Source: Planctomycetota bacterium (GTDB taxonomy: Bacteria > Planctomycetota > Phycisphaerae > SM23-33). Taken from it: a DNA stretch of 64,000 bases. The position numbers were made by a program, and so were the translations under genes. Positions 47,866 to 64,000 of this stretch are shown one piece after another. Position 1 is the first letter of the stretch. Every line of letters begins with the position of its first letter. The notes under the pieces were generated by a model that made no database searches, was not told the DNA's origin, and worked only from the letters and a program-made list of their open reading frames with translations. The stretch is from assembly GCA_022705325.1 (NCBI GenBank), contig JAKJER010000003.1, forward strand, positions 181,419-245,418, read 5' to 3'.

Positions 47866-48070
47866 TCGCGGATGCAGGAGACACAAGCGAAGAAAGGCCC
47901 GGCGCAGCAGGCGGCGGAGCGACGCAGTTCAGATGGCACATGGGAGCCCTTGCTGCTTTGCGGAACCGCCCCGAGGCGATTGTGTCTCTTTGAGGCCCTA
48001 AGACGTCGAATTTCCTTCCCGGTCCTGCGTTTAACTTGAACAGGATGCGCATGGACGCTGGAGATCGAGA

Positions 48071-50029
48071 ATGTCGGTTCTGTCGGGCGTGAAAAAGCTG
48101 GTGTCCGGTTTGCCGAGGCGGTTCACCGCGGTGGACTTCGACTCGCGCCAGATGCGCATCGTCCACGCCGAGCACGTGGGTGGGCGCATGCGGGTGCTCA
48201 AGCTGCATCAACTGGCCATGCCGCCGGAAACGGACCTGTCCAACGCCCAGTTGGTCGGACAGGTCCTGGGCAAGGGCATCCGCGATCTGGGGCTGTCCGG
48301 AACGGGCGTGCTGATGAATGTGCCCCGCGGACAGGCGGTGCTCAAGCCCCTCACGCTCCCCGCGCAGACTCCGCGACAGGAACTGCCAGCCATGGTCCAG
48401 TTCCAGATGGAGAAGGAACTCCCCTTCCGCCCCGAGGAAGCGGTTATCGACTTCACCATGGCTGAGCATTTCGACGCGGTCGCCAGCGCCGAACTCAGCG
48501 CCGCCGGCGCGGGCGTCAGCCTGTTGGTGTCGGCGGTGCGCCTGCCTGTCGTCGACTACTATCGCCGCGTCGCCGAAGCCGCGGGAGTCAAGCTCGCTCG
48601 CCTGGGGCTGAGACCCTACGCCAGCATTCAGTGCGTCGATGCCTGCACCCTGCGGGCGGAGAGCGAGACGGTCGCCATCGTCCACGTCACCCCGGACGAG
48701 ACGGAGATCAACGTCCTCCTGGGCGGGGGCCTGACGTTCAGCCGCTCGGCCGTCGTCACCGTCCTGCCCCCCAAGACCGGCAGCGACCCGGCGGTCAAGG
48801 AGACCGTAGACGCTCTGGCCACCGAGGTCGCCCGGAGCCTCCAGAGCTACCAGGCTGTCCAGGGCGGCAAGAAGGTCGACGCCATCCTCGTCGCCGGCGG
48901 GACGGGCATCGAGTCGCGGCTGGCCAGCCACCTGGCGCAGCGCCTGCTGACCAAGTGCGAGATATTCCACCCCGGCCCGGCCCTCGGCGTGCACAGCGAT
49001 GCGCCGGAGACCTCCGCCTTCATTGCGGCCCTTGGGCTGGCCGTCGGGCACTGCAGCAAGATCCTGCCTTTCGACTTCCTCGCCCCCAAGCGCCCCGTGG
49101 TCCGGCGCGATCTCAAGAAGATCCGCCGCATCGCCGCCCTGGCGATGGCCGGCGTTGTCCTCCTGGGCGCCGGCATCGCCTTCACCGCTCACCTCCAGGC
49201 CAAGCGGACCGTCCTGCAGAACCTTCGCAACAAGGTTGCCTCCGCACAGAAGGAGAACAAGGACGTCAAGGCCCTGCAGAAGCGGGTGAAGGCTTTCGAC
49301 ACGTGGCTGTCCGACAGCCGCAACTGGCTCGATCACTGGACCTATCTCAGTTGTCTCTTCCCGCCCTGCCAAGACGCTTATATCTCCGACTTCCGCGTCA
49401 ACCGCAGCGATGGCTCGATCAGCTTCATCGTCAAGGCCCGTGAGGCCGAAATCATCACCGACCTCGGAAAACGCCTCACCGAAGCCGGCTACGAGTTCCG
49501 CGCCGGGCGCGAGACCGCCACCGAGCAGGACCGTTACGGGTACCTCCACGCCGCCGACATGAAGGTGATCCTCCCGCCGAACCTGGAGATGAACCTGGCC
49601 AACATGGAGAAGCCCAAGCGCCCGGTCGACGACTCTTCCCTGGAGGACTTTCTCCGGCCCGGCTACAAGCCTGTGGGTTCGCCGAACCTGCGTCCGCCTG
49701 AAGGCTCCCCCCCCTCCGCCTCCGGCCCGGCGCCCTCGTCGTTGCCATCGTCACCGGAAGCGCCCGAGGCGCCCGCAGCTCCGACGGCGGCATCGCCTCC
49801 TCCTCAGCCCGCCGACGGATACATCGGAACCGACGGCAAGACCTACACGGGCCGGCTCGCCGTCGACCGCAAGCAGCACGAGAAGACGACGGAGCTGTAT
49901 TGGCAGAAGAAGGTGCGAGACCGCGAGAGAGAGAGCCAGCGAGAGGTCGAGAAGAAACGCGAGTTGGAGAAGGCGCGCGAGCGGGAACGCGAACGACGCT
50001 CCAGCCGCCGGGGGGACGGCAATGAATAA
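48071..50029 (+). CDS. PilM-like / PilN-like fusion protein (GspL-analogous assembly-platform component)
   Basis: 652 aa with GGAG 8 nt upstream. The N-terminal ~330 aa resemble the PilM/GspL actin-like cytoplasmic domain (VDFDSRQMRIVHAE, MVQFQMEKELPF, VAIVHVTPDETEINVLLGG, AILVAGGTG). One TM helix (IAALAMAGVVLLGAGIAFTA) and a PilN-like coiled-coil/periplasmic part follow. The protein ends in a Pro-rich segment and an Arg/Glu-rich tail (RDRERESQREVEKKRELEKARERERERR). Confidence 0.65.
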   Translation: MSVLSGVKKLVSGLPRRFTAVDFDSRQMRIVHAEHVGGRMRVLKLHQLAMPPETDLSNAQLVGQVLGKGIRDLGLSGTGVLMNVPRGQAVLKPLTLPAQTPRQELPAMVQFQMEKELPFRPEEAVIDFTMAEHFDAVASAELSAAGAGVSLLVSAVRLPVVDYYRRVAEAAGVKLARLGLRPYASIQCVDACTLRAESETVAIVHVTPDETEINVLLGGGLTFSRSAVVTVLPPKTGSDPAVKETVDALATEVARSLQSYQAVQGGKKVDAILVAGGTGIESRLASHLAQRLLTKCEIFHPGPALGVHSDAPETSAFIAALGLAVGHCSKILPFDFLAPKRPVVRRDLKKIRRIAALAMAGVVLLGAGIAFTAHLQAKRTVLQNLRNKVASAQKENKDVKALQKRVKAFDTWLSDSRNWLDHWTYLSCLFPPCQDAYISDFRVNRSDGSISFIVKAREAEIITDLGKRLTEAGYEFRAGRETATEQDRYGYLHAADMKVILPPNLEMNLANMEKPKRPVDDSSLEDFLRPGYKPVGSPNLRPPEGSPPSASGPAPSSLPSSPEAPEAPAAPTAASPPPQPADGYIGTDGKTYTGRLAVDRKQHEKTTELYWQKKVRDRERESQREVEKKRELEKARERERERRSSRRGDGNE

Positions 50030-51098
50030 GCGCGAGAAGACGATGGCTGGCCTGACCGCCGCCATGGCGGGGATCTTCCTGGGTTTCCTGACGATCAACG
50101 GCTTCGTGCTCAAACCGCTGCAGAAGATGGATGTCGACGCCCAGAAGCTCAGCGGGCAACTGGCGAGCTTGCAGCGAGAGAATGCAGCCCGCAAGAGCCT
50201 CGAGCCGCGTCTCAAGGAGTTGGTGTCGCGCTGCTTCGGCGGCGACGAACTCAAGGCGGGCGAGGAACTGCGGGCCCGGCTGGTGACGCTGATGGACCAG
50301 GCGGGGCTGTCCACCGAGAAGCGTCTGCTGAACCCGGTCACCGGACAGTCGGTCAGTGGCGCGTACAAGGAGATCGGACGGCGGGTACAGGTCAGCGGGA
50401 AGCTCGGCAACGCCGTCGACTTCCTCTATTTGCTCAATGCAGAGCCGCACCTGCACCGCCTGGACTCGCTCAGCCTCACACCCGCCCAGGGAGGCACCGT
50501 GGAGTTGAACCTGACCTACTCCACGCTCGTGCCAGCGGAGGGCTTGCCAGCCTCCAAGGACATCAAGCCGCTTCCCACGCAGCCCGCGCCCAACCTGCGA
50601 GAAGGCGAGCGGACACTGTACGATCCGATCGCGTCGCGAGATCTTCTGCGCCCGTACATCAAGCGCCCCCCGCCGCCTCCCCCGGTGCCGCAGCCCGTGC
50701 CCGCTGTTGCACGCCGCCATGATCCGCCCCCACCGCCTCCCCCGCCGCCAAAGACCAGCAGCGAGGGACGCTATCGCCTGGTCCTCATGCCGATGGCGCC
50801 GGGAGAGCCGTTCTCCGTGCTGGACCAGAGCACGCGCCAGACCTACTCCTACAACATCGGGCAGTTCCTGGGCGGCGGAAAGGTCGTCATGGTCGACTTC
50901 CGCCCCTGTCCCCTCCCGGACGACCCCGACACGATCTCGCCCAGCAGGCTCATTCTCCAGATCGGCGACGCCTACTGGGCCGTCGAGTATGGACAGACCC
51001 TCTCGGCCAAGCGACAATTGCGGAAGGATGAATTGCCTCCTGAATTGTCTGGCGCCGCAGCAGCGCCGGCCAGTCAACCGGCCTCGCCAGCCTCCTGA
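50022..51098 (+). CDS. PilO/GspM-like protein with C-terminal PilP/GspC-HR-like domain
   Basis: 358 aa, with an 8-nt overlap with the previous gene. It has an N-terminal TM (LTAAMAGIFLGFLTINGFVL), a coiled coil and a PilO-like domain (VSGKLGNAVDFLYLLNAEPHLHRLDSLSLTP). A Pro-rich linker (PPPPPPVPQPVP...PPPPPPPPK) follows. The last part is a ~90-aa beta-rich domain (YRLVLMPMAPGEPFSVLDQSTRQTYSYNIGQFLGGGKVVMVDF...LILQIGDAYWAVEYGQTL). Domain calls are by pattern only. Confidence 0.55.
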   Translation: MNKREKTMAGLTAAMAGIFLGFLTINGFVLKPLQKMDVDAQKLSGQLASLQRENAARKSLEPRLKELVSRCFGGDELKAGEELRARLVTLMDQAGLSTEKRLLNPVTGQSVSGAYKEIGRRVQVSGKLGNAVDFLYLLNAEPHLHRLDSLSLTPAQGGTVELNLTYSTLVPAEGLPASKDIKPLPTQPAPNLREGERTLYDPIASRDLLRPYIKRPPPPPPVPQPVPAVARRHDPPPPPPPPPKTSSEGRYRLVLMPMAPGEPFSVLDQSTRQTYSYNIGQFLGGGKVVMVDFRPCPLPDDPDTISPSRLILQIGDAYWAVEYGQTLSAKRQLRKDELPPELSGAAAAPASQPASPAS

Positions 51099-51350: not shown

Positions 51351-54300
51351 ATGCGAACTAACTGGATACTGGCTTTCGCGGTTATCTCCGCCCTTGCCGT
51401 GGCCCTGACTGCCCAGACGACCAAACCGTCGCCGCAGCCGGCCACCCAGCCAGCCGCCGCACCGACCACCCAGCCCGCCGTCGCTGCCGCGCCGACCACC
51501 AAGCCGGCCGTTGCCGCTGCGCCGACTACCCAGCCCGCCGTCGCTGCCGCACCGACCACCAAGCCGGCCGTTGTCGCTGCGCCGACTACCCAGCCCGCCG
51601 TCGCTGCCGCACCGACCACCAAGCCGGCCGTTGCCGCTGCGCCGACCACCCAGCCCGCCGTCGCTGCCGCACCGACCACCAAGCCGGCCGTTGCCGCTGC
51701 GCCGACCACCAAGCCCGCCGTCGCTGCCGCGCCGACCACCAAGCCGGCCGTTGCCGCTGCGCCGACCACCCAGCCCGCCGTCGCTGCCGCGCCGACTGTG
51801 AGACCGGCCGGGACGTACAGTAAGGACTCACCCAAGATCTTCCTCTTCCAGTTTAGCGGCTGTCCGTATCATGAGGTGATTCGCAAGTTCGCCCAGGCCT
51901 GTAAGAAACCGTTGTTGGGGGAAGTCGAGATTCCGGGCAGTCTCACGTTCTTCGACAGCGAACCTTACTGCTACGAAGAAGCCCTGGACACCCTCAACAT
52001 CCTCTTGAACATGCGGGGCTTCGCCCTGATCGAGTTCAAGCGGTATCTCCGCGTGGTGCAGGTAACCGAACTGGCCAACAACGCGAGCATCCTCCGCGGA
52101 CTGGACCAGGTCGGGGACATCCGGAACGAGCAGGTCGTCACCGTCTTGCTTCCGGTGGAGAATCTCGATCCGGAGGCCGCCTCCAAAGCCATCGTCCGCA
52201 TGGTGTCTTCGTACGGCTCGATCACTCCCATGCCTCGAGGCAAGGGTGTTCTCATCACCGACCGTCTGTCCAGCGTTCGCCGCATTCAGGACATGATCCA
52301 GATGCTGGACGCCGAGCGGGCGACCGCCAGCGACATCAAGACCATCCAGATCAAGAAGGCTTCGGCCAAGTCCGTCGCTTCGGTCATCAATCAGGTCCTG
52401 GGCGGTCCGTCTTCCAGCCCCGAACGCAGGTCGTCATCGGCTCCGCCGGCCTCTTCGGGTGACAGCGTGTCAGCCTACAGCGATGACCGCACCAATCTCC
52501 TGTTCCTGCGCGGTGTGGGCGCCAAGCTGCAACTGGCCGAGCAACTCGTGGAGAAGTTGGACAGCGAAGCGACCAGCGATGTCAGCGACATGCGCCTGAT
52601 CGAGTTGAAGAACGCCCGCGCCGAGGACGTAGCCAAGACCATCAGCGAAGTCATGCCCCGCGACCAGATCCAGGTGGCGGGCCCGCCCAGCAGCGACTCC
52701 AGCCGACGCCACTATCCCGTCACCGTGGCCAAGGGCAAGGTCGTCGCCGAGCCGGAGACCAACCGCCTGATCGTCTCCGCTCCGCTGGACGTGATGGTCA
52801 AGATCGAGGAACTGATCAAGAAGCTCGACGTGGCCAGCGACACCAGCGGCGGGGTCAAGGTCCTGCGTCTCAAGACCGCCGACGCCGCCCAGCTTGCCCC
52901 TATTGTCTCGGCCGCGGTGGCCAAGCAAACCCTCGCCGCTGGCGGGGCGAGAAGGGGAATGGTCACTGTCACCGCAGACAGCCGCACGAATTCTCTGGTG
53001 ATCGTGGGCCCGGCCGGCGACATCCAGGCAGCCGAGAAGCTCGTCGCCGAACTCGACCGCCCGCTGGACAAGGAAGAGGAACGCCAGATCCGCATCATCC
53101 AGTTACCCTCGGGCAACGCCGAGAAGCTGGCCAGTGCCATCTCCCGCGTGCTGGACAGCTCCCCGTCTTCGCATTACGGCTCCAGCCGCTATGGGTCGTC
53201 CTCGTCCCGCTCCCAGACCAGCCGCCCGCGTATCGAGGCCGACTCCGGCACCAACAGTCTGCTGATCTCGGCTGCCCCAAGCGACTGGCCGCAGATCGAA
53301 TCCATCCTGAAGCAGATCATTCCGCCCCCACCGCCTGACCAGCCCGCGGCCGCCACGCCGCTGGCCTTGACGACTCCGGTGCTGCGCCACGTGCCGCTCA
53401 AGTTCGCCAAGGCGGAGGATCTCGCCACCACGCTGCTGTCCGTGTTCGGCACGCGCCGGCGCAGCGAGGCCGTTTCCATCATCATCACCCCGTCGGCCCG
53501 CACCAACAGTCTGCTCATCTCGGCCGCCGAACCCGACCAGATCGCCATGGGGGAGTTGATCAAGACTCTCGACGTCGACTCCAGCGAGAAGCTCGACCCG
53601 GTCCGCATCGTCGAACTGAAGGTGGCTGACGCCGCCAAGGTCGCCGACGCCATCCAGGCCGTCCTGCCCCCGCGCCCCGTCGGGCGACGCGGCGAGACCC
53701 ACCAGGTCACCATCCACGCCGACACCGCCACCAACACCCTCTTTATCCGCGCCGGCGAGGCCGAGCAGAAGCTCATCGACGAGGTTATAGCCCGGATGGA
53801 CAAGGGCGCAATCGACCCCACCATTGTCCGCGAGACGCGAATCATCGCCCTCAAGTTCGTCCCTGCCAGCCAGATGGCGGCCAGTGTCCAGCAGTTCTTC
53901 CAGTCGGCCGGCGGCTCGCCCTCCAGCCCATACGGCTCGTCGTATTATCGCCGCCGGAGCTACTCCTCCGCCTCCGGAGAAAAGGCCTTCGATTCGCTGG
54001 TCGTCGCCGCCGCACCGGGAGACCAGGCCCTCATCGTGGAAGGACCCAAGAAGAAGGTCGACGAGGTCGCCGCCTTCGTCGCCAAACTCGACACCCAGGA
54101 CACCGGCCAGGCGACAATTGTCCGCGTCTATACCCTCAAGGAAGCCGACGCCGGCGAAATCTCCCGGACCCTGTCGGCCACTTTCTCCAAGAAGTGGCAG
54201 GACCAGAAGCGACGCGATCCGAAGCTGGCCGACCCCGAGCCGTCGTTTGAAATCAACGCCGGCGCCAACCAGCTCATCATCGCCGCCACCGAGAAGCAGC

Positions 54301-57300
54301 TTACCGAGATAGACGCGTTGATCGCCCAACTCGAGAAGGCCCCGGCTGTGACCAGCCAGACCAAGACCTTCCCCCTCAAGCACGCCAAGGCCGAGGAACT
54401 GGTCAACGTCCTCCAGACGATGCTGACCTCAGGCGCTCCCAGCCCCTACAGCGGCTATGCGTACAGTCGGCGATCCAGAAGCGTCGAGGGCGAGTTGAAG
54501 ATCGCCGCCATCGCCGCCTCCAATTCGCTGGTCATCCAGGGCCCGCCAGCCAAGATGGCCAAGGCCGAGCAACTCATCGCCTCCTTCGACACGCCCCAGG
54601 CGGGCGAGTCCTCGCTGATCAGCATCGTGCCGCTCAAGGCCGCCTCCGCCTCCCAACTCGCGGTCACCCTCAAGAACATGCTGCCTCCCCAGAGTCGAGA
54701 GCGAGAAAGCGAGTTGGTCATTCAGGCGGACACGGCGAGCAACTCCCTGCTCATCCGCGCCAGCGCCACGCAGCGAAAGATCATCGACGAACTGATCCCC
54801 AAGCTCGACGTCGAGTTGGCCGAAGGCACCCGCGAGATGCGGGTCGTGCCCGTAATGTTCGTCTCGGCCTCTCAGATCGCCCAGACCGTGTCGCAGGTCT
54901 TCCGCGGCCAGAACGGGACATCTTCGTCGTCTTCCTCCTATCGACGATCGTACTATCGGTCGTACGACGCCCCGCAGGCGGGTCCGGGCAGCGACGAGAT
55001 TCTTATCACGCCCGCCCCCAACGACCGCAGCATCGTCATCGAAGCCCCCAAGAAGAAGATCGAGCCGATTGTTCAGCTCATCGCAACCCTTGACGTTGCC
55101 GAAGGCACCGCCAAGGCCAACCAGATCCGCACCTACCAGCTCAAGAACGCCAACGCAGCCGAAGTTTCCCGCGTTCTTTCGGGCATGTACACCCAGCGAA
55201 CCAGCGGATACGGCGAGGCCCCTTCCGCGCGAGGCGGCTCGGGCCCGACCGCCACCCCGCCCAAGTTCGACCACGACACCGCGACCAATCAGCTCGTCGT
55301 CTCGGCCAGCGACGAACAGTTCGTCGAGATCGACGCACTGATCAAGAAGCTGGAAGAGGCGCCCCAACTGGCCACCCAGACCAAGACCTTCCCGCTCAAG
55401 CACGTGCGGGCGAGCGAGGTCCTGCCGGTGCTGACCAACCTGCTGAGCGAAACGCCCGCCTCCACCCCCGAGGGCTACGCGGGCTACTCGCCCTACTCCT
55501 CCCGTCGGCGCTACGGAGCGTCTGCGTCGTCGGAGCTTCGCCTGGCCGCCCTCCCCGGCGCCAATAGCATCGTCGCCCAGGGCCCGCCGCCCAAGATGCT
55601 CAAGGTCGAGCAACTCATCGCTTCCTTCGACACGCCCCAGGCGGGCGAGTCCTCGCTGATCACGATGGTGCCGCTGAAGAACGCCTCGGCCGCCAAACTC
55701 GCCGAGACCCTCAAGTCCATGCTGCCCGCCGCCTCGCGAGACAAGCCAAGCGAACTGGTCGTCCAGGCCGACACCGCGACCAACTCTCTGCTCATCCGCG
55801 CCGACGGCACCCAGCGGAAGATGCTCGACGAGTTGATCCTCAAACTCGACGTCGAGGTCGTCCAGACCGCCCGCGAAATGCGGGTCGTTCCGGTGCAGTT
55901 CGTCTCCGCCGCCCAGATCGCCCAGACCGTCTCCCAAGTCTTCCTGAAACAGGACGCTTCGTCGTCCTCCTACCGGCGATCCTCGTACTACTACCGCTCG
56001 TATTACCGCTCCTACGACGAGCCCGAAGAACCCACCCGCACCGGCGCGGATGCCGACAAGATCGTCGTGACGGCCTCCCCCAACGACCGCTCCGTCATCG
56101 TCGAGGCCCCCAAGCTGAAGATCGAGCCTGTCGTTCAGCTCATCACGACCCTGGACGTGCCCGAGGGCACGGCCAAGCCCCAGCAGATCCGCACCTACCA
56201 GCTCAAGAACGCCAACGCAGCTGAAACCGCCCGCATCCTGAGCAATATGTACGCCCAGCGTCAGAACGGCAGCGTCAGCAGCTACGGCGAGGAAGGCAGT
56301 CCAAGCCGGACCGCCAAGTCGAAGATCCCCGCGCCGAAGTTCGACCACGACGCCGGATCCAATCAGCTTGTCATCTCGGCCAACGACGAGCAGTTCGTCG
56401 AAATCGAAGCCCTGATCAAGACGCTGGATGAGACGCCCCAACTGGCCACGCAGACCAAGACGTTCCCGCTCAAGCACGCCAGGGCCAGCGAGATCGTCCC
56501 GCTGCTGACCAGCCTGTTGAGCGACACGCCCTCGTCCCCGGCGGTCGGCAGCTACTCGCGGTATTCATCGCGAAGTCGCTACGGCGCGTCGGCGACCGCC
56601 GGAGAGGTCCACGTCGCCACCCTGCCCGGGACCAACTCTGTGATTGTGCAGGGCCCGCCGGCCAAACTCACCCAGGCCGAGCAGTTGATCTCCACGTTCG
56701 ACACGCCCGAAGCGGGCGGCTCGTCGCTGGTGACGGTGATCCCGCTCAAGAACGCCTCGGCCGTCACGCTCGCCGAGACGTTGCGGAGCATGCTGCCCCC
56801 GCCCGTGCGGGGAAGGCCCGAGGAGATCGTCATCCAGGCCGACAGCCTGACCAACTCGCTGTTGGTCCGAGCTCCCGAAGACCAGCGCAAGACTATCGAC
56901 GACCTCATCGCCAAGCTCGACGGCGGCCTGGCCGATAATGCCCAGACCCGCGAGATGCGGATCATCCCGGTCAAGCACCTGTCGGCCGCCCAACTCGCAG
57001 AGACCGTCAGCGTCATGTACCAGCAACTCCGCGAGGCCCGGCGCGGGCTCCGCGCCCGTCCCGTTGACCCGGGCGAGCAGGTCGTCATCACCCCCTCTCC
57101 CAATGACCGCTCGATCGTCGTCGAAGCCCCCAAGAAGAAGGTAGAGGAGATCGCCAAGCTGGTGGCCGATCTGGACACCGAGGAGAACAGCTTCCAGATC
57201 CTCGTGCGGACCTACCAGCTCAAGACCGCCAGTGCATCGGAGCTGGCCCGTTCCCTGACCAACATCTTCGCCGCCAAAGTCGCCGGCTCCGCCTCGCCCG

Positions 57301-60300
57301 GCCGGCGCCCCGGCGCCGTGCCCAATCGCGCCGGTCCGCAGCCCACCTTCGACGTCGACGCCGCCAGCAACCAACTCCTGGTCGCCGCCACGTCTGAACA
57401 ACTCATCGAGATCGAGCAGCTCATCCAGAAGATGGACAATCCGGAGGTGCAGGCCGTCCAGACCCGCATCTTCCCCATCCAGCACGCCAAGGCCGACGAG
57501 CTGGTCACTCTCCTTCAGACGATGCTGAATGAGAATCCCCCCTCGGCCGCCTACGGCAGCTCGGCGTACTACTCGCGACGCTACCGCCCGACCGGGTCGT
57601 CCAGTGGAGACGACATCCGCATTTCCACGCTGCCCGGCACGAACAGCATTGTCGTCCAGGGGCCGCCCAACAAGCTTACGCGGGCCGAACAGCTCATCAA
57701 GAGCTTTGACACGCCCGAGGCGGCCGTCGCCGCCACCGTCACCATCATCCCCATCAAGAACGCCTCCGCGGCCACCCTGGTCGAGACCCTGCGGGCCATG
57801 CTCCCGCCGGTCAAGGGTCGGGCCGAGGAAGTGTTCATCCAGGCCGACATCCTGACCAACTCCGTGCTCATCCGCGCTCCCGAGACCCAACGGAAAATGG
57901 TCACCGAGTTGGTCGCCAAGCTGGACACCCAGAGCGAGCTTACCCGCGAGATGCGCGTTATCCCGCTCACCTTCACCAGCGCCACCCAACTCGCCAGCGC
58001 CCTGCAGGTCATGTACCAGCAGCACATGGCCACCCGGGGCGGCCCGCGGGCCAAGCCGGTGGACCCGGCCGAGCAGGTCATCTTCACCCCCGCGCCGCAC
58101 GACCAGGCCCTGGTCGTCGAGGCGCCCAAGAAGAAGATGGAGGAGATCGCCGCCCTCATCGAGAAGCTGGACGTCCAGGAAAGCCCCGACCGCCTCACGG
58201 TACGCACCTACCAGTTGGCCGAGAACTCCGACGCGGTCGAGACCGCCCGTACGCTGGCCAAGCTCTTTACCGAGACCCGCGTTCGCCCGGGCGCGATCGC
58301 GGGCAATCAACAGCAGCCCCGCTTCGAGGCCGACGGAGTGGGCAACCAGCTCATCATCGCCGCCACGCCCAAGCAGTTCGAGGAGATCGAGCCGCTGCTG
58401 AAGAAGCTCCAGGACTCCGCCCAGCTTGCCGTGCGAAGCAAAACCTACCAGCTCAAGTTCGCCAAGGCCGCCGACATCGTCCAGATGCTCCAGTCCATGC
58501 TGACCGGGACCACCGGCCGGTCGCGGTACTCCGCCTATGGGGACCCGGCCGCCGCGTCGAGCGAGGTCCGTGTCGCTGCCGTCAACGGCAGCAACAGTGT
58601 CTTCGTCCAGGGGCCGCCGGCCAAGCTGGCCATGGCCGACGAACTGATCCGCACCTTCGACACCGAGCAGGCGGCTGCCCGCAGCGTGATTCAGATCATC
58701 AAGCTCAAGAACGCCCAGGCGGCCTCGCTGGCCCAGGCCGTCAACGCCACGCTGGAGGCCCGGGCCGCCCGCCGTCCTTACGGCGAGCAGGCCGGCGCCG
58801 ACGACGGAAAGGTCACCGTCACGCCCGAGCCCAACTCCAACAGCCTTCTGGTCCGCGGGCCGCTGGCCGAGATTCCCTCCGTGCTGGAGATGATCCGCGA
58901 CCTGGATGAGGGCGGGACGAGCGCCAAGAGCGAAGTCCGCATCTTCCCGATCAAGAACTCCGACGCATACGAGCTTTCGACAACCCTGGGCAGACTGGTG
59001 CAGGACATGATCGCCCAGCAGACGCGCGCTCGCGGCGACGTGCCCGTGCCGGCCTTCAGCATCGCCGCCGACACCCGCACCAACTCGCTCATCGTCTCCA
59101 CCACCTCCGCCTACTTCGCCATCGTCGAGCAACTCCTGGAGAACCTCGACAAGGAACAGCCCATCCGCGACGTTCAGTACATCGCTCTGACCAACGCCCA
59201 AGCCGTCGACGTAGCCGAGAAGGTCAACGCCCTCTTCACCGACCGCAAAGGGTCCGACAAGCCTGTCATCGAGGCGGAGGAGTACACCAATTCCCTCACC
59301 GTCATCGCCAAGGCGGTGGACCTGCTGACGATCCAGGAAATGGTGGAGAAGCTCGACAAGGGACGGCGCGAACTTCAGGTCCGGGTCGTCCCCATCAAGC
59401 AGATCAAGGCCGAACGGATGGCCGAGATCATCCAGCGGGTATACGGGCAGACGACGAGCAGCCGTGTCATCGTCACCGGCCAGTCCCCCCCGACGCGGAT
59501 GGGGATCGAGTTGCCCGCCCCTCAACCGACGCCCGCTCCGCCCCCGCCGGCGGGCAAAGGCCCCGCCGCTTCGGCCAAGCCGTGGACCGGCAGCGTTCCT
59601 CGCCCGGCGACGCAGCCAGCCACCCGGCCCACCACGCGACCGGAGAGCGCCCCAGCCGCCAAGGACGATGGCGAGTTGGAGGAGAACCCTCCGATCACCA
59701 TCGCCATCGACCATAAGAGCAACACGCTGATCATCTCGGGCCCGCCCCAGGAGATCGACAACATCCAGGGCCTCATCGACCAGATGATGACCTCGCCCGA
59801 GGAGGCCGAGGCTGAGTTCCGGACCTATAGGATCGAGCACGCCGACCCGGTGGTTCTGGCCCAGACGCTGGAGGACATGTTCAACCCCAAGCCCAAGGTA
59901 GTCTACCTCCAAGCCCGTACCGGACAGCCGGCGCAGGCCCCGGCTGAACCGCCCCCGCCCATTACTGTACAGGCCGACGCCCGCACTCGCTCCATTGTCG
60001 TCCGGGCGAAAGTCATCGACTTCGACATGATCGAGCCGCTGATCAAGTACCTCGACCAGGAGACTTCCGCCCACAGCGAACTGCGCGTCTTCCCGCTGGA
60101 GAACACCGAGGCCGGCGAGGTCGCCGACAACCTCAAGGAGATGTTCAACCTGGCCCAGAAGGGGACCGCGGCCCAGCCCGCGCCCCAGCCTCAGGCCGGG
60201 CGCACGGCCCAGCGCGGCCGGGCCGACCGTGTCCGCCAGGTCATGGACCTGCAGGTCGCTGCCGGCGGCTCAGCCAAGGTCGATCCCTATTCGGCCATCT

Positions 60301-63300
60301 CCATCTCCGCCAACCGCAACACCAACAGCGTGGTCGTCTCGGCGCCTAAGGAAGTCATGAAGCTCGTCGAGTCGATCATTCAGGAGTTGGACCAGTCGGC
60401 TCTCCAGTCCAAGACCGTGGTCCGCATGTACCCGCTCAAGCACGCCGAGGTCACGCCGACGGTGTCGGCCCTGCGGGAGATCTTCTCGCAGGCGGCCCGC
60501 ACCAGCCCGCTGCGCTCGTCCCGCACCGGTTCGACGCCCGGAGCCTCGCTGCGAGACGCCCCGATCGTCGTCACCGGCGACGAGGTCGGCAGGCAGATCA
60601 TCGTGTCCGCCCCCGTCACCCAGCATGAAACGGTCGCCAAGGTCATCCAGGACATCGACACCGCCCAGGGAGTCGGGCAGATCCTGGTGCAGGTCTACCG
60701 CATCCAGAACGCGGAGGCGACCAGCGTCGCCGCTTCACTCAGTACCATGTTCTCGTCGACGGCCTCCGCCGCCGGCACGGGGCGGCGTGTCCGCACTGCC
60801 ACCGGAGGCGGCGGCCCCAGGATCAGCGCCGACGCCAGCAGCAACTGCATCGTGGTGCGGGCCGTCCAGGAGGACCACGCCGAGATCACCCGTCTGCTGG
60901 AGGAACTGGACGCCTCGCCGGCCGACAAGTATCCCGTGCGCCGCATCCCCATCCAGAACGCAAGCCCCACCGTCCTGGCCACCAACCTGCGGGCGGTCTT
61001 CGCCGGCCGTTCAGGCACGGCTGGCGGGCGGCGAGGCGGTGCCGCCGGACGCGACGGACTGGTCATACAGCCTGACGAGGACGCCCGCATGCTCCTGGTC
61101 CGAGCGGACGAGGAGACCTACAAGAAGATCGAGGAGATGGTCCAGGCCCTCGATGCCGTCAGCGTCTCCGACAAGCTCCAGACCGTCATCATCCCGCTCG
61201 AACACGGGCAGGCGACCAGCGTGGCCGCCGCATTATCCCAGGCGTTCGGCGCCTCCGCACGCGGGGGACGCCGCTCCACCAGCCCCGAAGACGAAGTCCG
61301 CATCGCTGCGGAGACGTTCACCAACTCCATCCTGATCACCGCCAGCGAGAAGAATCTGCTGAAGATCCAGGCGATGGTCCAGAAGCTTGAGAAGGACACG
61401 GCCGGCGGGGTCAAGAGCGAGTTCCTTGTGCTCACCAACGCCAAGGCCGACGACCTGGCGACCGTCCTGGCACGCCTGGCCGGCGCGAGCGGACGCGGCG
61501 CCCGGGGCGCAGCCGGGACCGGCGGGGTCACCGTGGCCGCCGATGCCGCCGCCAACGCCCTGGTGTTCTCCGGACCGGCCGCCGAGGTCGCGAAGCTCTC
61601 GACGATGGCCAAGCAACTCGACCAGGCGGCTCAGGGCTCGGCTGTCCAGGTGTTCATGATCCCGTTGAAGAACAACATCGCGTCGGAGGTGGCAGCCGCC
61701 ATCCAGCAACTCCACGCCCAGCAGGCGGTGCGCCGCGGCGGGGCCGCTTCCCGCGAACCGCTCTCGGTCACGTTCGACGACTCCGCCAACGTCGTCGTCC
61801 TGTCCACCACCAAGCGACAGTATGACGAGATTTCACAGTGGGTGACCAAGTTCGAGGAACTGAAGGTCACGCGCGAAGCCCCGAAGATCATCGCCCTGGT
61901 CAACAGCGACCCGCAGGAGATCGAGCGGGCCCTTCGCCAGATGTTCGCCGGCGGGTCGGCCCCTGGAGGGCGCGGCTCGCGGACCGTTCGCACCACCGGC
62001 AAGGTCGAGATCGCCTCTCTGCCACAGCAGCGTGCCCTGCTGGTCAAGGCTGGCGCCGAGGACTTCAAGCTCATCAGCGATCTGGTCAAGTCGCTGGACG
62101 AGTCGGCCCCGACCGCCATGCCCAAGCAGACAATGGTCGCGCTGAAGCACGCGCCGGCCGCCAGCGTGGCCTCCGCCTTGACGGCGGCCTTCGGCCCCGG
62201 CAGGCGAGGGCGCACCGCCCTGGCCCGACCCGAGGATGAGGTCCGCGTCGTGGCCGAGGCGGCCTCCAACTCCGTCATCATCACCGCCGACGAGAAGAAC
62301 ACGACCGCCGTGCTGAGCCTGATCGCCAAGCTGGACACCGACGAGGCCTCGGGCAAGGCCCAGTTCCTGATCCTCAAGAAGGCCAAAGCCGTCGAGTTGG
62401 CCCGCGTGCTCAGCGCGGCCACGTCGCGGGGCGCCCGCAAGCCGGGCCAGCAGCCGCTGGTAGTCACGGCGGATGCCGCCAGCAACGCCCTGGTCCTCTC
62501 GGGCCCGCCCAACGACATCGAAGCCGCCATCGCCATGGCCACCAAGCTGGACGAGGCCGCCACGGCGGGCATCTCGGAAGTCTTCCTGATCCCGCTCAAG
62601 ACGGGCCAGGCCAGCGAGGTCGCCGCCACCGTACAGCAGATCTACCAGCAGCAGGCCGCGGCGACGCGCTCGGCGGGGCGGACGATCGACCCCCTCGCCG
62701 TCTCGGCTGATGACTCGGCCAACGTGATCATCCTGGCCACCACCAAGGTCATGCATGACCAGGTGAACCAGTGGATCGGCAAGGTCGAAGAGATGAAGGT
62801 CGGCCAGGGCGAGCCGCGCCTGGTCACGCTCGAGAACGCCGATGTGGCCGAGGTAGAGAAGGCCGTGCGGGCGTTGTTCATCACTGTCCGGGCGACCGCC
62901 GGGCGTGGCGCCCGCGGGGCGGCCGGGGCCACCGGCGCCCGTATCGAGGTGGCTTCCCTGCCCCAGCAGCGGGCCTTGCTGATCAAGTCCGGCGAGGAAG
63001 ACTTCAAGGCCATCAACGACCTGATCATGGCACTGGACGCAGCCGCCGTCACCCGCCTGAACAAGCAGACGATCATTCCGCTGAAGCACGCCCAGGCCAC
63101 CAGCGTAGCTCCGGCTTTGCAGTCGGCATTTCAGCAGCAGATTCGCGGGCGCGGAGCGGCGGTGAAGCCAGAAGATGAGGTCCGCATCATCGCCGAGCCG
63201 ATCTCCAACACATTGATCGTGGCTGCCAGCGACAAGAACACGGTCCTCGTGCAGGGCCTGGTGGCCAAGCTGGATACGGACGAGGCCTCGGGCAAGGCCC

Positions 63301-64000
63301 AGTTCCTGATTCTCCAGAAGGCCAAGGCGGTCGAACTGGCCAAGGTGCTGTCTACGGTGTCGGCCAGTCGCAGCCGTAAGCCCGGCCAGCAACCGCTGAT
63401 CATCACCGCCGACGTTGCCAGCAACGCCTTGGTCATGTCGGGCTCCGCGACCGAGATGGACGCGGCGATCAAGATGGCGCAGGAGTTGGACGGCGCCGCC
63501 AGCGAGAGCCTCGCGCAGGTATTCCTGATCACGCTCAAGAGCGGACAGGCCAGCGACGTGGCTGCCACGGTTCAGCAGATTTATCAGCAGCAGACGGCGG
63601 CCGCCCGCACCGCGGGCCGCTCCATCGATCCCCTGGCGGTCTCGGCGGATGACTCCGCCAACGTGCTCATCCTCTCAACCACCAAGGCGATGCATGACCA
63701 GGTGAACCAGTGGGTGCAGAAGGTTGAGGAGATGAAACTCAACCAGGAAGCGCCCCAGTTGGTCACCCTCGAGAACGCCGACGTCCAGGAAGTGGAGAAG
63801 GCCATCCGACAGATCTTCGTCTCCGGGAAGGTCAGCCGAACGGGAAAGGCCATCGGGAAGATCGAATTGGCCGTGTTGCCCCAGCAGCGAGCCTTGTTGA
63901 TCAAGGCGGGCGAGGAGGACTTCAAGGCCATCAACGAGTTGATCAAGTCCCTGGACGCTGCGGCCGTTGCCGCCAAGCACCAGCAGACGCTGATTACACT
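51351..64000 (+). CDS. Giant secretin (GspD)-like protein with about 47 tandem secretin N-domain-like modules; 5' partial, continues beyond the window
   Basis: This ORF is not in the supplied track. ATG 51351 has GGAG 8 nt upstream, and the frame with codons starting at positions divisible by 3 has no stop through nt 64000 (>=4,216 codons). I translated it manually end to end. It has signal peptide MRTNWILAFAVISALAVALTAQ, an (APTT[QK]PAVAA)x11 linker and an N0-like domain (KIFLFQFSGCPYHEVIRKFAQACKKPLLGEVEIPGSLTFFDSEPYCYEEALDTLNILLNMRGFALIEFKRYLRVVQV). Repeated modules of the form xxTFPLKHAKAEELVNVLQTML...(loop)...IQADTASNSLLIRASATQRKIIDELIPKLD follow. All checked repeat anchors (54360, 55380, 56454, 57462, 58437, 61416, 62358, 63297) are in this frame. 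It is co-directional with, and directly downstream of, the T2SS genes. Confidence 0.85.
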   Translation, partial: MRTNWILAFAVISALAVALTAQTTKPSPQPATQPAAAPTTQPAVAAAPTTKPAVAAAPTTQPAVAAAPTTKPAVVAAPTTQPAVAAAPTTKPAVAAAPTTQPAVAAAPTTKPAVAAAPTTKPAVAAAPTTKPAVAAAPTTQPAVAAAPTVRPAGTYSKDSPKIFLFQFSGCPYHEVIRKFAQACKKPLLGEVEIPGSLTFFDSEPYCYEEALDTLNILLNMRGFALIEFKRYLRVVQVTELANNASILRGLDQVGDIRNEQVVTVLLPVENLDPEAASKAIVRMVSSYGSITPMPRGKGVLITDRLSSVRRIQDMIQMLDAERATASDIKTIQIKKASAKSVASVINQVLGGPSSSPERRSSSAPPASSGDSVSAYSDDRTNLLFLRGVGAKLQLAEQLVEKLDSEATSDVSDMRLIELKNARAEDVAKTISEVMPRDQIQVAGPPSSDSSRRHYPVTVAKGKVVAEPETNRLIVSAPLDVMVKIEELIKKLDVASDTSGGVKVLRLKTADAAQLAPIVSAAVAKQTLAAGGARRGMVTVTADSRTNSLVIVGPAGDIQAAEKLVAELDRPLDKEEERQIRIIQLPSGNAEKLASAISRVLDSSPSSHYGSSRYGSSSSRSQTSRPRIEADSGTNSLLISAAPSDWPQIESILKQIIPPPPPDQPAAATPLALTTPVLRHVPLKFAKAEDLATTLLSVFGTRRRSEAVSIIITPSARTNSLLISAAEPDQIAMGELIKTLDVDSSEKLDPVRIVELKVADAAKVADAIQAVLPPRPVGRRGETHQVTIHADTATNTLFIRAGEAEQKLIDEVIARMDKGAIDPTIVRETRIIALKFVPASQMAASVQQFFQSAGGSPSSPYGSSYYRRRSYSSASGEKAFDSLVVAAAPGDQALIVEGPKKKVDEVAAFVAKLDTQDTGQATIVRVYTLKEADAGEISRTLSATFSKKWQDQKRRDPKLADPEPSFEINAGANQLIIAATEKQLTEIDALIAQLEKAPAVTSQTKTFPLKHAKAEELVNVLQTMLTSGAPSPYSGYAYSRRSRSVEGELKIAAIAASNSLVIQGPPAKMAKAEQLIASFDTPQAGESSLISIVPLKAASASQLAVTLKNMLPPQSRERESELVIQADTASNSLLIRASATQRKIIDELIPKLDVELAEGTREMRVVPVMFVSASQIAQTVSQVFRGQNGTSSSSSSYRRSYYRSYDAPQAGPGSDEILITPAPNDRSIVIEAPKKKIEPIVQLIATLDVAEGTAKANQIRTYQLKNANAAEVSRVLSGMYTQRTSGYGEAPSARGGSGPTATPPKFDHDTATNQLVVSASDEQFVEIDALIKKLEEAPQLATQTKTFPLKHVRASEVLPVLTNLLSETPASTPEGYAGYSPYSSRRRYGASASSELRLAALPGANSIVAQGPPPKMLKVEQLIASFDTPQAGESSLITMVPLKNASAAKLAETLKSMLPAASRDKPSELVVQADTATNSLLIRADGTQRKMLDELILKLDVEVVQTAREMRVVPVQFVSAAQIAQTVSQVFLKQDASSSSYRRSSYYYRSYYRSYDEPEEPTRTGADADKIVVTASPNDRSVIVEAPKLKIEPVVQLITTLDVPEGTAKPQQIRTYQLKNANAAETARILSNMYAQRQNGSVSSYGEEGSPSRTAKSKIPAPKFDHDAGSNQLVISANDEQFVEIEALIKTLDETPQLATQTKTFPLKHARASEIVPLLTSLLSDTPSSPAVGSYSRYSSRSRYGASATAGEVHVATLPGTNSVIVQGPPAKLTQAEQLISTFDTPEAGGSSLVTVIPLKNASAVTLAETLRSMLPPPVRGRPEEIVIQADSLTNSLLVRAPEDQRKTIDDLIAKLDGGLADNAQTREMRIIPVKHLSAAQLAETVSVMYQQLREARRGLRARPVDPGEQVVITPSPNDRSIVVEAPKKKVEEIAKLVADLDTEENSFQILVRTYQLKTASASELARSLTNIFAAKVAGSASPGRRPGAVPNRAGPQPTFDVDAASNQLLVAATSEQLIEIEQLIQKMDNPEVQAVQTRIFPIQHAKADELVTLLQTMLNENPPSAAYGSSAYYSRRYRPTGSSSGDDIRISTLPGTNSIVVQGPPNKLTRAEQLIKSFDTPEAAVAATVTIIPIKNASAATLVETLRAMLPPVKGRAEEVFIQADILTNSVLIRAPETQRKMVTELVAKLDTQSELTREMRVIPLTFTSATQLASALQVMYQQHMATRGGPRAKPVDPAEQVIFTPAPHDQALVVEAPKKKMEEIAALIEKLDVQESPDRLTVRTYQLAENSDAVETARTLAKLFTETRVRPGAIAGNQQQPRFEADGVGNQLIIAATPKQFEEIEPLLKKLQDSAQLAVRSKTYQLKFAKAADIVQMLQSMLTGTTGRSRYSAYGDPAAASSEVRVAAVNGSNSVFVQGPPAKLAMADELIRTFDTEQAAARSVIQIIKLKNAQAASLAQAVNATLEARAARRPYGEQAGADDGKVTVTPEPNSNSLLVRGPLAEIPSVLEMIRDLDEGGTSAKSEVRIFPIKNSDAYELSTTLGRLVQDMIAQQTRARGDVPVPAFSIAADTRTNSLIVSTTSAYFAIVEQLLENLDKEQPIRDVQYIALTNAQAVDVAEKVNALFTDRKGSDKPVIEAEEYTNSLTVIAKAVDLLTIQEMVEKLDKGRRELQVRVVPIKQIKAERMAEIIQRVYGQTTSSRVIVTGQSPPTRMGIELPAPQPTPAPPPPAGKGPAASAKPWTGSVPRPATQPATRPTTRPESAPAAKDDGELEENPPITIAIDHKSNTLIISGPPQEIDNIQGLIDQMMTSPEEAEAEFRTYRIEHADPVVLAQTLEDMFNPKPKVVYLQARTGQPAQAPAEPPPPITVQADARTRSIVVRAKVIDFDMIEPLIKYLDQETSAHSELRVFPLENTEAGEVADNLKEMFNLAQKGTAAQPAPQPQAGRTAQRGRADRVRQVMDLQVAAGGSAKVDPYSAISISANRNTNSVVVSAPKEVMKLVESIIQELDQSALQSKTVVRMYPLKHAEVTPTVSALREIFSQAARTSPLRSSRTGSTPGASLRDAPIVVTGDEVGRQIIVSAPVTQHETVAKVIQDIDTAQGVGQILVQVYRIQNAEATSVAASLSTMFSSTASAAGTGRRVRTATGGGGPRISADASSNCIVVRAVQEDHAEITRLLEELDASPADKYPVRRIPIQNASPTVLATNLRAVFAGRSGTAGGRRGGAAGRDGLVIQPDEDARMLLVRADEETYKKIEEMVQALDAVSVSDKLQTVIIPLEHGQATSVAAALSQAFGASARGGRRSTSPEDEVRIAAETFTNSILITASEKNLLKIQAMVQKLEKDTAGGVKSEFLVLTNAKADDLATVLARLAGASGRGARGAAGTGGVTVAADAAANALVFSGPAAEVAKLSTMAKQLDQAAQGSAVQVFMIPLKNNIASEVAAAIQQLHAQQAVRRGGAASREPLSVTFDDSANVVVLSTTKRQYDEISQWVTKFEELKVTREAPKIIALVNSDPQEIERALRQMFAGGSAPGGRGSRTVRTTGKVEIASLPQQRALLVKAGAEDFKLISDLVKSLDESAPTAMPKQTMVALKHAPAASVASALTAAFGPGRRGRTALARPEDEVRVVAEAASNSVIITADEKNTTAVLSLIAKLDTDEASGKAQFLILKKAKAVELARVLSAATSRGARKPGQQPLVVTADAASNALVLSGPPNDIEAAIAMATKLDEAATAGISEVFLIPLKTGQASEVAATVQQIYQQQAAATRSAGRTIDPLAVSADDSANVIILATTKVMHDQVNQWIGKVEEMKVGQGEPRLVTLENADVAEVEKAVRALFITVRATAGRGARGAAGATGARIEVASLPQQRALLIKSGEEDFKAINDLIMALDAAAVTRLNKQTIIPLKHAQATSVAPALQSAFQQQIRGRGAAVKPEDEVRIIAEPISNTLIVAASDKNTVLVQGLVAKLDTDEASGKAQFLILQKAKAVELAKVLSTVSASRSRKPGQQPLIITADVASNALVMSGSATEMDAAIKMAQELDGAASESLAQVFLITLKSGQASDVAATVQQIYQQQTAAARTAGRSIDPLAVSADDSANVLILSTTKAMHDQVNQWVQKVEEMKLNQEAPQLVTLENADVQEVEKAIRQIFVSGKVSRTGKAIGKIELAVLPQQRALLIKAGEEDFKAINELIKSLDAAAVAAKHQQTLIT
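51459..51800 (+). repeat. In-frame 30-nt tandem repeat (11 copies plus a degenerate 12th) encoding APTT[Q/K]PAVAA
   Basis: Units start at 51459, 51489 and so on up to 51759. Two nucleotide variants largely alternate (gcaccgaccacccagcccgccgtcgctgcc and gcgccgaccaccaagccggccgttgccgct), giving a 60-nt higher-order period. The track ORFs 51344..51835(-) and 51511..51801(+) are shadows of this repeat. Confidence 0.95.
54360..58436 (+). repeat. Super-repeat family 1 inside the giant ORF: four copies of a 4-module (~1 kb) unit
   Basis: Anchors are TKTFPLKHAKAEE (54360), TKTFPLKHVRASE (55380), TKTFPLKHARASE (56454) and TRIFPIQHAKADE (57462). A diverged fifth copy starts at SKTYQLKFAKAAD (58437). Periods are 1020, 1074, 1008 and 975 nt. 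Each copy holds four distinct module types in fixed order. Confidence 0.85.
61416..64000 (+). repeat. Super-repeat family 2 inside the giant ORF: 4-module (~0.94 kb) unit, at least 2.7 copies, continuing past the window
   Basis: Anchors are SEFLVLTNAKADDLA (61416), AQFLILKKAKAVELA (62358) and AQFLILQKAKAVELA (63297). Periods are 942 and 939 nt. A 60-nt stretch aligned by eye (62341-62400 against 63281-63340) is identical at 54 of 60 positions. Confidence 0.85.

What the first reader, a model, noticed from the sequence alone, without database searches (positions are those of the whole stretch)
53150..57610. Ser/Tyr/Arg-rich low-complexity inserts inside the loop of many modules
In the first half of the array the loop between the first helix and the DxxTNS strand often carries a peculiar Ser/Tyr/Arg tract. 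Examples with approximate positions: SSPSSHYGSSRYGSSSSRSQTSRP (~53160), SPSSPYGSSYYRRRSYSSASGEK (~53910), SGAPSPYSGYAYSRRSRS (~54430), TSSSSSSYRRSYYRSYD (~54920). Further examples are YAGYSPYSSRRRYGASASS (~55480), DASSSSYRRSSYYYRSYYRSYDEPEEP (~55953), GSYSRYSSRSRYGASAT (~56550) and AAYGSSAYYSRRYRPTGSSS (~57550). Later modules instead carry Gly/Arg/Ala tracts (GRGARGAAGTGG, GGRGSRTVRTTG). S/Y/R tracts of this kind are unusual for bacterial periplasmic proteins. They would place dozens of flexible, cationic, aromatic loops along the assembly. These could be candidates for inter-ring contacts, peptidoglycan or polysaccharide binding, or modification sites.
Basis: seen in the sequence. Interest (0 to 1): 0.6.

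Follow-up and report, generated by a model that had tools for sequence, protein, structure and literature searches.

The report
Tyr/Arg/Ser loops in giant secretin
Nine repeat units of a giant outer-membrane secretion-channel protein carry floppy loops rich in serine, tyrosine and arginine; related bacteria have them at the same spots, so they are real and probably under selection, but they are a new flavour of a loop already known to vary in such channels.

Summary
All eight quoted tracts, plus a weaker ninth, lie in one + strand ORF (51351 to beyond 63998). This is a type II secretion secretin with 46 Secretin_N modules in the window. Every tract sits in the loop between helix 1 and strand 2 of a module.

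Tyr is 7.7-fold enriched in these loops: 33 of the protein's 70 Tyr fall in 259 of its 4216 residues (p about 2e-22). Codons are mixed, so this is not a microsatellite. Tyr and Arg cluster in the loop centre. AlphaFold places the tracts outside confidently folded cores.

The tracts occupy two of the four positions of an old four-module super-repeat, so they represent about three origins, not eight. The closest homologues (40-45% identity, Planctomycetota MAGs) carry YSRYSRY- or YSPYSRY-like motifs in the same module types. More distant homologues keep only an Arg core, or have short loops.

The loop corresponds to the disordered N3 loop of PulD/GspD, whose N3 domains constrict the channel. Ordinary secretins also carry low-complexity inserts there.

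My best reading is that these are lumen-facing sticky contact loops in the inner-membrane-proximal part of a very long conduit. Their function is inferred, not shown. Verdict: a new variant of a known kind, of moderate interest.

The parts
51351..63998 (+). Giant GspD-like secretin gene. It starts with a signal peptide (MRTNWILAFAVISALAVALTAQ) and is cut off by the window end. At least 4216 aa and 46 Secretin_N modules are visible.
   Evidence: Longest stop-free frame; GC3 0.87; Pfam Secretin_N with 46 stretches, E=0, and a weak GspD N0 match at aa 174-234; full-length homologues end in Secretin PF00263.
53154..53225 (+). S/Y/R loop of module m04 (DSSPSSHYGSSRYGSSSSRSQTSR). It lies before the super-repeat array.
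53901..53996 (+). S/Y/R loop of module m07 (A-type).
54426..54494 (+). S/Y/R loop of module m09 (B-type). pLDDT is below 50 in the model.
54903..54998 (+). S/Y/R loop of module m11 (A-type). pLDDT is below 50 in the model.
55446..55535 (+). S/Y/R loop of module m13 (B-type). It contains GYSPYSSRRRYG, related to the YSPYSRY motif of homologues.
55944..56060 (+). S/Y/R loop of module m15 (A-type). This is the longest loop: 39 aa with 7 Tyr.
56520..56606 (+). S/Y/R loop of module m17 (B-type).
57528..57614 (+). S/Y/R loop of module m21 (B-type).
58503..58565 (+). Weak, decayed S/Y/R loop of module m25 (B-type; TGTTGRSRYSAYGDPAAASSE).
54360..58436 (+). Four copies of a four-module super-repeat (B-C-A-D; m09-12, m13-16, m17-20, m21-24), 47-69% aa identical to one another. 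S/Y/R loops occur at positions B and A. Position C always has a 10-residue loop. The A loops of the last two copies (m19, m23) have lost Ser and Tyr.
61482..62942 (+). Later modules whose loops are Gly/Arg/Ala-rich instead: m36 61482-61526, m38 61947-62003, m42 62880-62942.
40409..51098 (+). Type II secretion operon directly upstream: GspE 40409-42184, GspF 42403-43605, GspG 43694-44209, two unassigned ORFs, GspJ 45590-46303, GspK 46300-47865, a PilM-like gene 48071-50029, and an unassigned ORF 50022-51098.
   Evidence: Pfam; the same gene order occurs next to the giant secretin in the homologous loci.

Best explanation
What is shown: the tracts are intrinsically disordered expansions of the helix 1 to strand 2 loop of Secretin_N modules in a giant type II secretion secretin. 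Each loop has a neutral Ser/Pro/Gly/Ala leader, a central cluster of alternating Tyr and Arg, and a short acidic tail. The loops sit at fixed positions (module types A and B of a conserved four-module super-repeat, plus some earlier modules) in the N-terminal part of the array.

What is inferred: this N-terminal part is the inner-membrane-proximal end. The loop is the counterpart of the disordered N3 loop of classical secretins (PulD, GspD, pIV), whose N3 domains narrow the channel. If the modules stack as oligomeric rings, as classical N domains do, each A or B ring would project a crown of Tyr/Arg loops into the lumen. There they would act as soft, multivalent contact surfaces, using cation-pi, hydrogen-bond and electrostatic interactions. 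They would touch one another, the acidic pseudopilus, or passing cargo. The Arg core is the ancestral, family-wide feature. The Ser/Tyr expansion is a clade-specific elaboration.
For: - Position in the loop.
- Disorder, outside the core: one search gives pLDDT below 50 for residues 25-43 and 185-210, against cores of 70-87. One search gives loop 57-64 against core 85-95.
- Homology of the loop to the N3 loop: m09 aligns end to end with N3 of ExeD 6i1x (148-230), whose own loop is low complexity, and with PulD 6hcg 266-339. PulD residues 288-303 were not modelled and 'N3 domain constriction sites' lie in the channel (PMC6882859). The pIV paper reports disordered N3 loops pointing into the pore centre (PMC8563730).
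- Evidence for selection rather than mutational bias: Tyr (AT-rich codons) is 7.7x enriched in a 66% GC gene. Synonymous codons are mixed. Tyr and Arg are clustered: the cluster spans 0.48 of the loop against 0.79 in shuffles (p<1e-4), and the Tyr-to-nearest-Arg distance is 2.76 against 4.38 (p=0.004).
- Retention: composition is kept across paralogous units that are only 47-69% identical. Orthologous modules of proteins 40-45% identical (L001, L002, L004, L024) carry YSRYSRY, SRYGRY or YSPYSRY.
- An Arg core is present in nearly all loops of the homologues inspected.
- Pseudopilins encoded next to the gene are acidic here and in the homologous loci, for example GspG -11, orf45 -14 and GspK -12 in the window.
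- The C-type loop is fixed at 10 residues while A and B loops range from about 12 to about 40. This fits loops that project into free space.
Against: - No tool here could show which way the loop points in an assembled ring. The lumen orientation rests on homology to one domain type (N3) and on the assumption that all modules form rings.
- Distant homologues with the same architecture manage with 12-15 residue loops and no aromatics (L018, L009). The Tyr/Ser expansion is therefore not needed for assembly.
- Within this protein the A-type loops of m19 and m23 have lost Tyr and Ser.
- Net loop charge is near zero, which weakens a purely electrostatic role.
- Acidic pseudopilins may be common in general. 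I did not compare them with systems that lack Arg loops.
Confidence: 0.4

Rival explanations
1. The loops are unconstrained surface loops that accumulate low-complexity sequence by local duplication and drift. The S/Y/R composition is a lineage quirk with no specific role.
For: - This loop is a general hotspot for low-complexity inserts in secretins, with a different flavour in each lineage: G/S/T in ExeD, XcpQ and GspD N3; S/R/Q/G/M/F in P0003-P0011 and 80-90 residue G/S loops in P0013 and P0015; G/A or P/A in L017 and L010.
- Loops are short in L018 and L009.
- The tracts were lost in m19 and m23.
- m15 looks like m11 with an extra RSYY-like unit.
Against: - Tyr enrichment runs against the GC bias.
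- Tyr and Arg cluster non-randomly.
- Recognisable motifs (YSRYSRY, YSPYSRY) persist at the same module types in proteins only 40-45% identical, and across paralogues 47-69% identical.
Confidence: 0.25
2. The loops face outward or toward neighbouring rings. They would glue the ring stack together or anchor it to peptidoglycan or periplasmic polysaccharide. This would be analogous in role to the AMIN domains of type IV pilus secretins.
For: - Tyr and Arg are typical carbohydrate- and protein-contact residues (my own knowledge).
- The loops are concentrated in the N-terminal third of the array in this protein and in its homologues. This would fit one envelope layer.
- Pfam found no AMIN or other known peptidoglycan-binding domain in the visible part.
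Against: The homologous loop of PulD and pIV N3 is associated with the channel interior, not the outside (PMC6882859; PMC8563730). No test of binding was possible.
Confidence: 0.2
3. The tracts are substrates for post-translational chemistry, such as Ser/Tyr phosphorylation, O-glycosylation or oxidative Tyr-Tyr cross-linking. This would stiffen or regulate the assembly.
For: Only composition: the loops are dense in exposed Ser and Tyr and are disordered.
Against: Pfam named no kinase, glycosyltransferase or oxidase in the operon. Three of its ORFs have no Pfam match. The gene order is conserved across the homologous loci. Nothing here tests modification.
Confidence: 0.1

Closest known systems
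Disordered loop of the N3 domain of T2SS secretins (PulD, GspD, ExeD, XcpQ), associated with the 'N3 constriction'
   Same: It has the same topological position, between helix 1 and strand 2 of a Secretin_N domain. It is low complexity and unresolved or disordered. It belongs to a GspD-type secretin encoded in a T2SS operon (PMC6882859).
   Different: Classical secretins have one such loop per chain, rich in Gly/Ser/Thr/Lys. Here at least nine modules per chain carry it, with a Tyr/Arg cluster. The modules lie far from the outer-membrane barrel, in the N-terminal third of an array of at least 46 modules.
Extended N3 loop of the type III secretin InvG, and disordered N3 loops of phage pIV
   Same: These are N3 loops reported to extend toward the gate (InvG) or to point into the pore centre (pIV) (PMC8563730). 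I did not check that they are the same helix 1 to strand 2 loop.
   Different: The InvG loop is described as an extended loop, not low complexity. There is a single copy per chain.
Thermus thermophilus PilQ, a secretin with additional N-domain rings spanning a wide periplasm
   Same: It shows the principle that extra N-domain rings lengthen the periplasmic conduit. I saw only the title and abstract of PMC5745081; the rest is my own knowledge.
   Different: It has a handful of rings rather than 46 or more, and I know of no Tyr/Arg loops in it.
Tyr/Arg 'sticker' with Ser/Gly 'spacer' low-complexity regions of eukaryotic condensate proteins, and Tyr/Ser/Gly/Arg-rich synthetic antibody loops
   Same: The composition grammar is the same: aromatic plus Arg contact residues separated by small polar spacers (10.1101/2021.01.01.425046 for the sticker role of Tyr; the antibody analogy is my own knowledge).
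   Different: This is an analogy only. The loops are 21-39 residues long, tethered at both ends to a folded periplasmic domain, and bacterial. No cohesion or binding was tested.

Membership tests
Secretin (T2SS GspD type) | Repeated Secretin_N (PF03958) periplasmic domains | tested here: met
   46 stretches, E=0, 1520.8 bits. The models fold as beta-alpha-beta-beta-alpha. The top Foldseek hits are GspD, ExeD and PulD N domains.
Secretin (T2SS GspD type) | N0 domain at the N-terminus | tested here: inconclusive
   The window protein scores 17.7 bits against a cut-off of 27 at aa 174-234. The homologue in L006 passes with 33.3 bits.
Secretin (T2SS GspD type) | C-terminal Secretin beta-barrel domain (PF00263) | not testable with these tools
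   The gene runs off the window end at 63998. The full-length homologues L006 and L008 have it, at 175.5 and 180.6 bits.
Secretin (T2SS GspD type) | Encoded with GspE, GspF and pseudopilin genes | tested here: met
   GspE, F, G, J, K and a PilM-like gene lie directly upstream. The synteny is conserved in the homologous loci.
N3-type disordered channel loop of secretins | Located between helix 1 and strand 2 of the N domain | tested here: met
   Module alignment. Alignment of m09 to ExeD N3 including its loop, and to PulD 266-339; the unmodelled PulD loop 288-303 falls at the matching offset (PMC6882859).
N3-type disordered channel loop of secretins | Disordered and outside the folded core | tested here: met
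   pLDDT below 50 with no secondary structure. pLDDT 57-64 against a core of 85-95.
N3-type disordered channel loop of secretins | Projects into the channel lumen of an oligomeric ring | not testable with these tools
   Only single-chain prediction is available and no model coordinates are returned. This needs an oligomer model or cryo-EM.
Sticker-spacer (prion-like) low-complexity domain | Aromatic and Arg stickers separated by small polar spacers | tested here: met
   Composition and clustering.
Sticker-spacer (prion-like) low-complexity domain | Long free disordered domain (typically 100 residues or more) that self-associates | tested here: not met
   The loops are 21-39 residues and anchored at both ends. 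Self-association was not tested. I therefore do not file the loops in this family; it is a resemblance only.

The most novel reading that the evidence does not exclude
In an assembled multi-ring tube, the Tyr/Arg loops of successive A and B rings would form cohesive, gel-like gaskets. These would resemble FG-nucleoporin barriers, inside a periplasm-spanning secretin conduit that could exceed 100 nm. They would seal the lumen against the periplasm while letting the acidic pseudopilus or selected cargo slide through. That would be a bacterial, periplasmic use of condensate-type sequence grammar.
Probability: 0.1. Interest if true: 0.8.

Novelty: new variant of a known kind. Interest (0 to 1): 0.45.

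Why it matters
If the loops line the lumen, they mark functional specialisation along a secretin tube far longer than any studied. Alternating 'sticky' and 'plain' rings would occupy the inner-membrane-proximal third. That would give a concrete handle (Tyr/Arg to Ser/Gly swaps, loop peptides) for asking how such a conduit is sealed, guided or loaded.

The loops also offer a conserved sequence signature (YSRYSRY or YSPYSRY in A/B modules) for recognising one clade of these giant secretins in metagenomes.

If the loops are mere drift, the result is still useful. It shows that the helix 1 to strand 2 loop of Secretin_N is a general hotspot for low-complexity insertion.

Tried and rejected
- Wrong frame or antisense gene: rejected. 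Long minus-strand ORFs overlap the region (54429-56477, 56565-60074). However, the + frame has GC3 0.87 and 46 Pfam domains.
- Microsatellite or slippage artefact: rejected. Tandem Repeats Finder finds nothing in 53150-57610, and Ser, Tyr and Arg use mixed synonymous codons.
- Recent duplication alone as the reason for similar tracts: rejected. The super-repeat copies are only 67-79% identical in DNA and 47-69% in protein.
- RS-domain-like (Arg-Ser dipeptide) reading: not pursued. The loops are built around Tyr/Arg clusters rather than RS runs.
- Searches for near relatives to measure loop turnover at short distance: the protein database gave only two fragments at 30-33% identity. The species-representative genome set had nothing above 45%. 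The metagenome scan gave one locus at 40%. The source genome itself was not found.
- Literature searches for giant or multi-N-domain planctomycete secretins found nothing relevant. This covers the held library only.
- Rfam scan of the window: no matches.
- Loop orientation could not be computed, because model coordinates are not returned and only single chains can be predicted.
- In one search my first ORF choice for L001, L002 and L004 picked the wrong frame. I corrected this.


Full report
**What the region is.** The finding lies inside one very long + strand reading frame, stop-free from 51273 to the window end (4242 codons). The gene starts at 51351 with a signal peptide (MRTNWILAFAVISALAVALTAQ). 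Third-position GC is 0.87, as in the other real genes of this 66% GC window. The long minus-strand ORFs that overlap it are high-GC artefacts.

Pfam finds 46 Secretin_N (PF03958) stretches (E=0) and a sub-threshold GspD N0 match. Directly upstream on the same strand lie GspE, GspF, the pseudopilin GspG, GspJ, GspK and a PilM-like gene. The protein is therefore the secretin of a type II secretion system, with an extraordinary number of periplasmic N domains. It is cut off by the window end. Complete homologues end in the Secretin barrel domain PF00263 and begin with N0.

**Checking the observation.** I built a module HMM, segmented the protein into 46 modules and aligned them. Every module reads strand 1, helix 1, variable loop, strand 2, a D-x-x-T-N-S-like turn, strand 3, helix 2. 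All eight quoted tracts, at the quoted coordinates, lie in the variable loop. A weaker ninth is m25. The Gly/Arg/Ala loops quoted for later modules are also present.

The nine loops make up 6% of the visible protein. They hold 47% of its tyrosines (33 of 70; 7.7-fold; p=1.9e-22). Ser is enriched 3.5-fold and Arg 1.9-fold. A six-frame scan of the whole window finds comparable tracts nowhere else.

The tracts are not nucleotide repeats. Tandem Repeats Finder reports only the N-terminal APTT[QK]PAVAA repeat. Ser, Tyr and Arg in the loops use mixed synonymous codons.

Within each loop, Tyr and Arg are packed together in the centre. The cluster spans 0.48 of the loop, against 0.79 in shuffles (p<1e-4). 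The distance from Tyr to the nearest Arg is 2.76, against 4.38 (p=0.004). The cluster is flanked by a neutral Ser/Pro/Gly/Ala leader and an acidic tail. Net charge is therefore only 0 to +2.

**Non-independence.** Modules m09-m24 are four copies of a four-module unit, which I label B-C-A-D. S/Y/R loops occupy position B (m09, m13, m17, m21 and, decayed, m25) and position A (m07, m11, m15). The A loops of m19 and m23 have lost Ser and Tyr. Position C always has a 10-residue loop. Module m04 is separate. The 'many modules' thus reduce to about three origins. The copies are old, however (47-69% protein identity, 67-79% DNA identity). Retention of the composition is therefore informative.

**Structure.** An AlphaFold model of m09-m12 gives four beta-alpha-beta-beta-alpha domains with core pLDDT of 70-87. 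The two S/Y/R loops (residues 25-43 and 185-210) fall below 50 and have no secondary structure. A single-module model of m15, using the 46 modules as the alignment, gives mean pLDDT 81.7, with the core at 85-95 and the loop at 57-64. The nearest solved structures are the N domains of T2SS secretins. The inserts are therefore outside the folded core, and the module boundaries are right.

**Homologues.** The large protein database holds only two related fragments. A scan of species-representative genomes returned 22 loci with giant secretins, and one metagenome locus was added later. These proteins are about 3,700 to more than 5,100 aa long, with 35-55 modules, and come from Planctomycetota and Verrucomicrobiota MAGs. 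All have the same operon order. The B-C-A-D unit is orthologous across them.

- The closest proteins (L001, L002, L004, L024; 40-45% identity) carry, in the same A and B modules, loops such as SEAPATSSSPAYSRYRGRYRSPTASTSGG, PGSSQPASRYSRYRTRTVVPGGDEAER and ADEGTSASSGYSPYSRYGGYGSRYGRRRSTSSSSGG.
- L003, L005, L008, L013 and L016 have similar tracts.
- Others use Trp or Phe with Arg, for example SRWGRR and RRRWWE.
- More distant proteins keep only an Arg core (SRGRGR). Some have short 12-15 residue loops (L018, L009). Others fill the loop with Gly/Ala or Pro.
- The Verrucomicrobiota proteins lack the tracts.
- In the close homologues inspected (L001, L002, L024), as in the window protein, the Tyr/Arg character fades in the last super-repeat copy.

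The insert position is therefore conserved. An Arg core is family-wide. The Ser/Tyr expansion is a trait of the nearest clade.

**Relation to known secretins.** Module m09 aligns over its whole length with the N3 domain of ExeD (6i1x 148-230), whose own loop is a Gly/Thr/Ala tract. It also aligns with PulD (6hcg 266-339). The PulD paper states that residues 288-303 could not be modelled and that N3 domain constriction sites lie within the channel (PMC6882859). That segment falls at the offset of the S/Y/R loop. The pIV paper reports disordered N3 loops pointing into the pore centre (PMC8563730).

Ordinary 930-970 aa secretins recovered carry 40-56 residue S/R/Q/G/M/F inserts in this loop. Two Burkholderiales-type GspD proteins carry 80-90 residue Gly/Ser loops. 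Low-complexity inserts at this spot are thus a general property of Secretin_N domains. What is new is the Tyr/Arg flavour and its repetition in many modules of one chain.

**Most likely mechanism.** Three things are shown: the loops are disordered, they have a conserved position, and their composition appears to be under selection. The rest is inferred. If the modules stack as rings like classical N domains, the A and B rings of the N-terminal part of the tube would project crowns of Tyr/Arg loops into the lumen. These would alternate with plain C rings.

Tyr and Arg with small polar spacers is the grammar of multivalent weak contacts (10.1101/2021.01.01.425046). It is also, from my own knowledge, the grammar of promiscuous binding loops in minimalist antibodies. 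The pseudopilins encoded alongside are acidic here and in the homologues. This fits contact with Arg-centred loops, but I ran no control on systems without such loops.

I give this reading 0.4. Its rivals are neutral drift in a hotspot loop (0.25), outward-facing or inter-ring or cell-wall contacts (0.2), and modification or cross-linking sites (0.1).

**Novelty and verdict.** I rate it a new variant of a known kind, with moderate interest (0.45). The most novel reading not excluded is an FG-nucleoporin-like cohesive gasket inside a very long secretin tube (probability about 0.1). The giant secretin family itself is the more remarkable object, but it lies outside this finding. I found no paper on it in the held library.

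Noticed in passing
window 51351-63998 (+); loci L001-L022, L024: The host protein is a giant secretin. At least 46 Secretin_N modules are visible before the window ends. Homologues of about 3,700 to more than 5,100 aa with 35-55 modules occur in Planctomycetota and Verrucomicrobiota MAGs, always behind the same T2SS operon. The conserved C-terminal modules seen in homologues (loops such as RPSATAQVTPEARALQEQVRLL) have not been reached at 63998, so the real protein is probably well over 5,500 aa. I found no paper on this in the held library.
   Followed up: partly
window 51453-51796: There is a near-perfect tandem repeat just after the signal peptide (period 60 nt, 5.7 copies, 96% matches; or period 30 nt, 11.4 copies). 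It encodes APTTQPAVAA/APTTKPAVAA, a Pro/Thr/Ala linker ahead of the N0 domain.
   Followed up: no
window 59445-59693 (m29), 59883-59960 (m30), 60147-60296 (m31): Three consecutive mid-array modules have much longer loops: 83 residues (Pro-rich), 26 (Pro-rich) and 50. Homologues have long loops at the matching place, starting GQMTD..., NPK... and containing QQRAEMIRQMIE-like helices. This looks like a conserved landmark that divides the array into two halves.
   Followed up: partly
window 54684-54713, 55725-55754, 56796-56825, 57804-57830 and matching modules in L007, L010, L018: The C-type module of the four-module unit has a loop of 9-10 residues (PPxxRGxxxE-like; 9 in m22 and in one L018 module) in this protein and in the homologues where the unit is clear. 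The neighbouring A and B loops vary from 12 to about 40 residues.
   Followed up: partly
proteins P0003-P0011: Ordinary-sized (930-970 aa) environmental secretins carry 40-56 residue low-complexity inserts in the same loop of all four N domains. These are rich in S/R/Q/G, with motifs such as PMMFRGPFGG that recall FG repeats.
   Followed up: no
window 43995-45029, 45102-45593, 50022-51098: Three operon ORFs have no Pfam match but conserved position in all homologous loci. The 45102-45593 product is very acidic (pI 4.1). They probably stand in for the missing T2SS parts (GspH or GspI, and a GspC, M or N-like partner).
   Followed up: partly
window 38712-40163 (-): A 483 aa protein made largely of EF-hand calcium-binding motifs lies just upstream of the T2SS operon on the opposite strand.
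   Followed up: no
L002 and L004: Runs of N (200 and 100 bases) occur in these loci, and the giant reading frame of L004 is split across two frames. The protein database holds only fragments of this family. Such repetitive genes appear to be poorly assembled and under-represented in public data.
   Followed up: no
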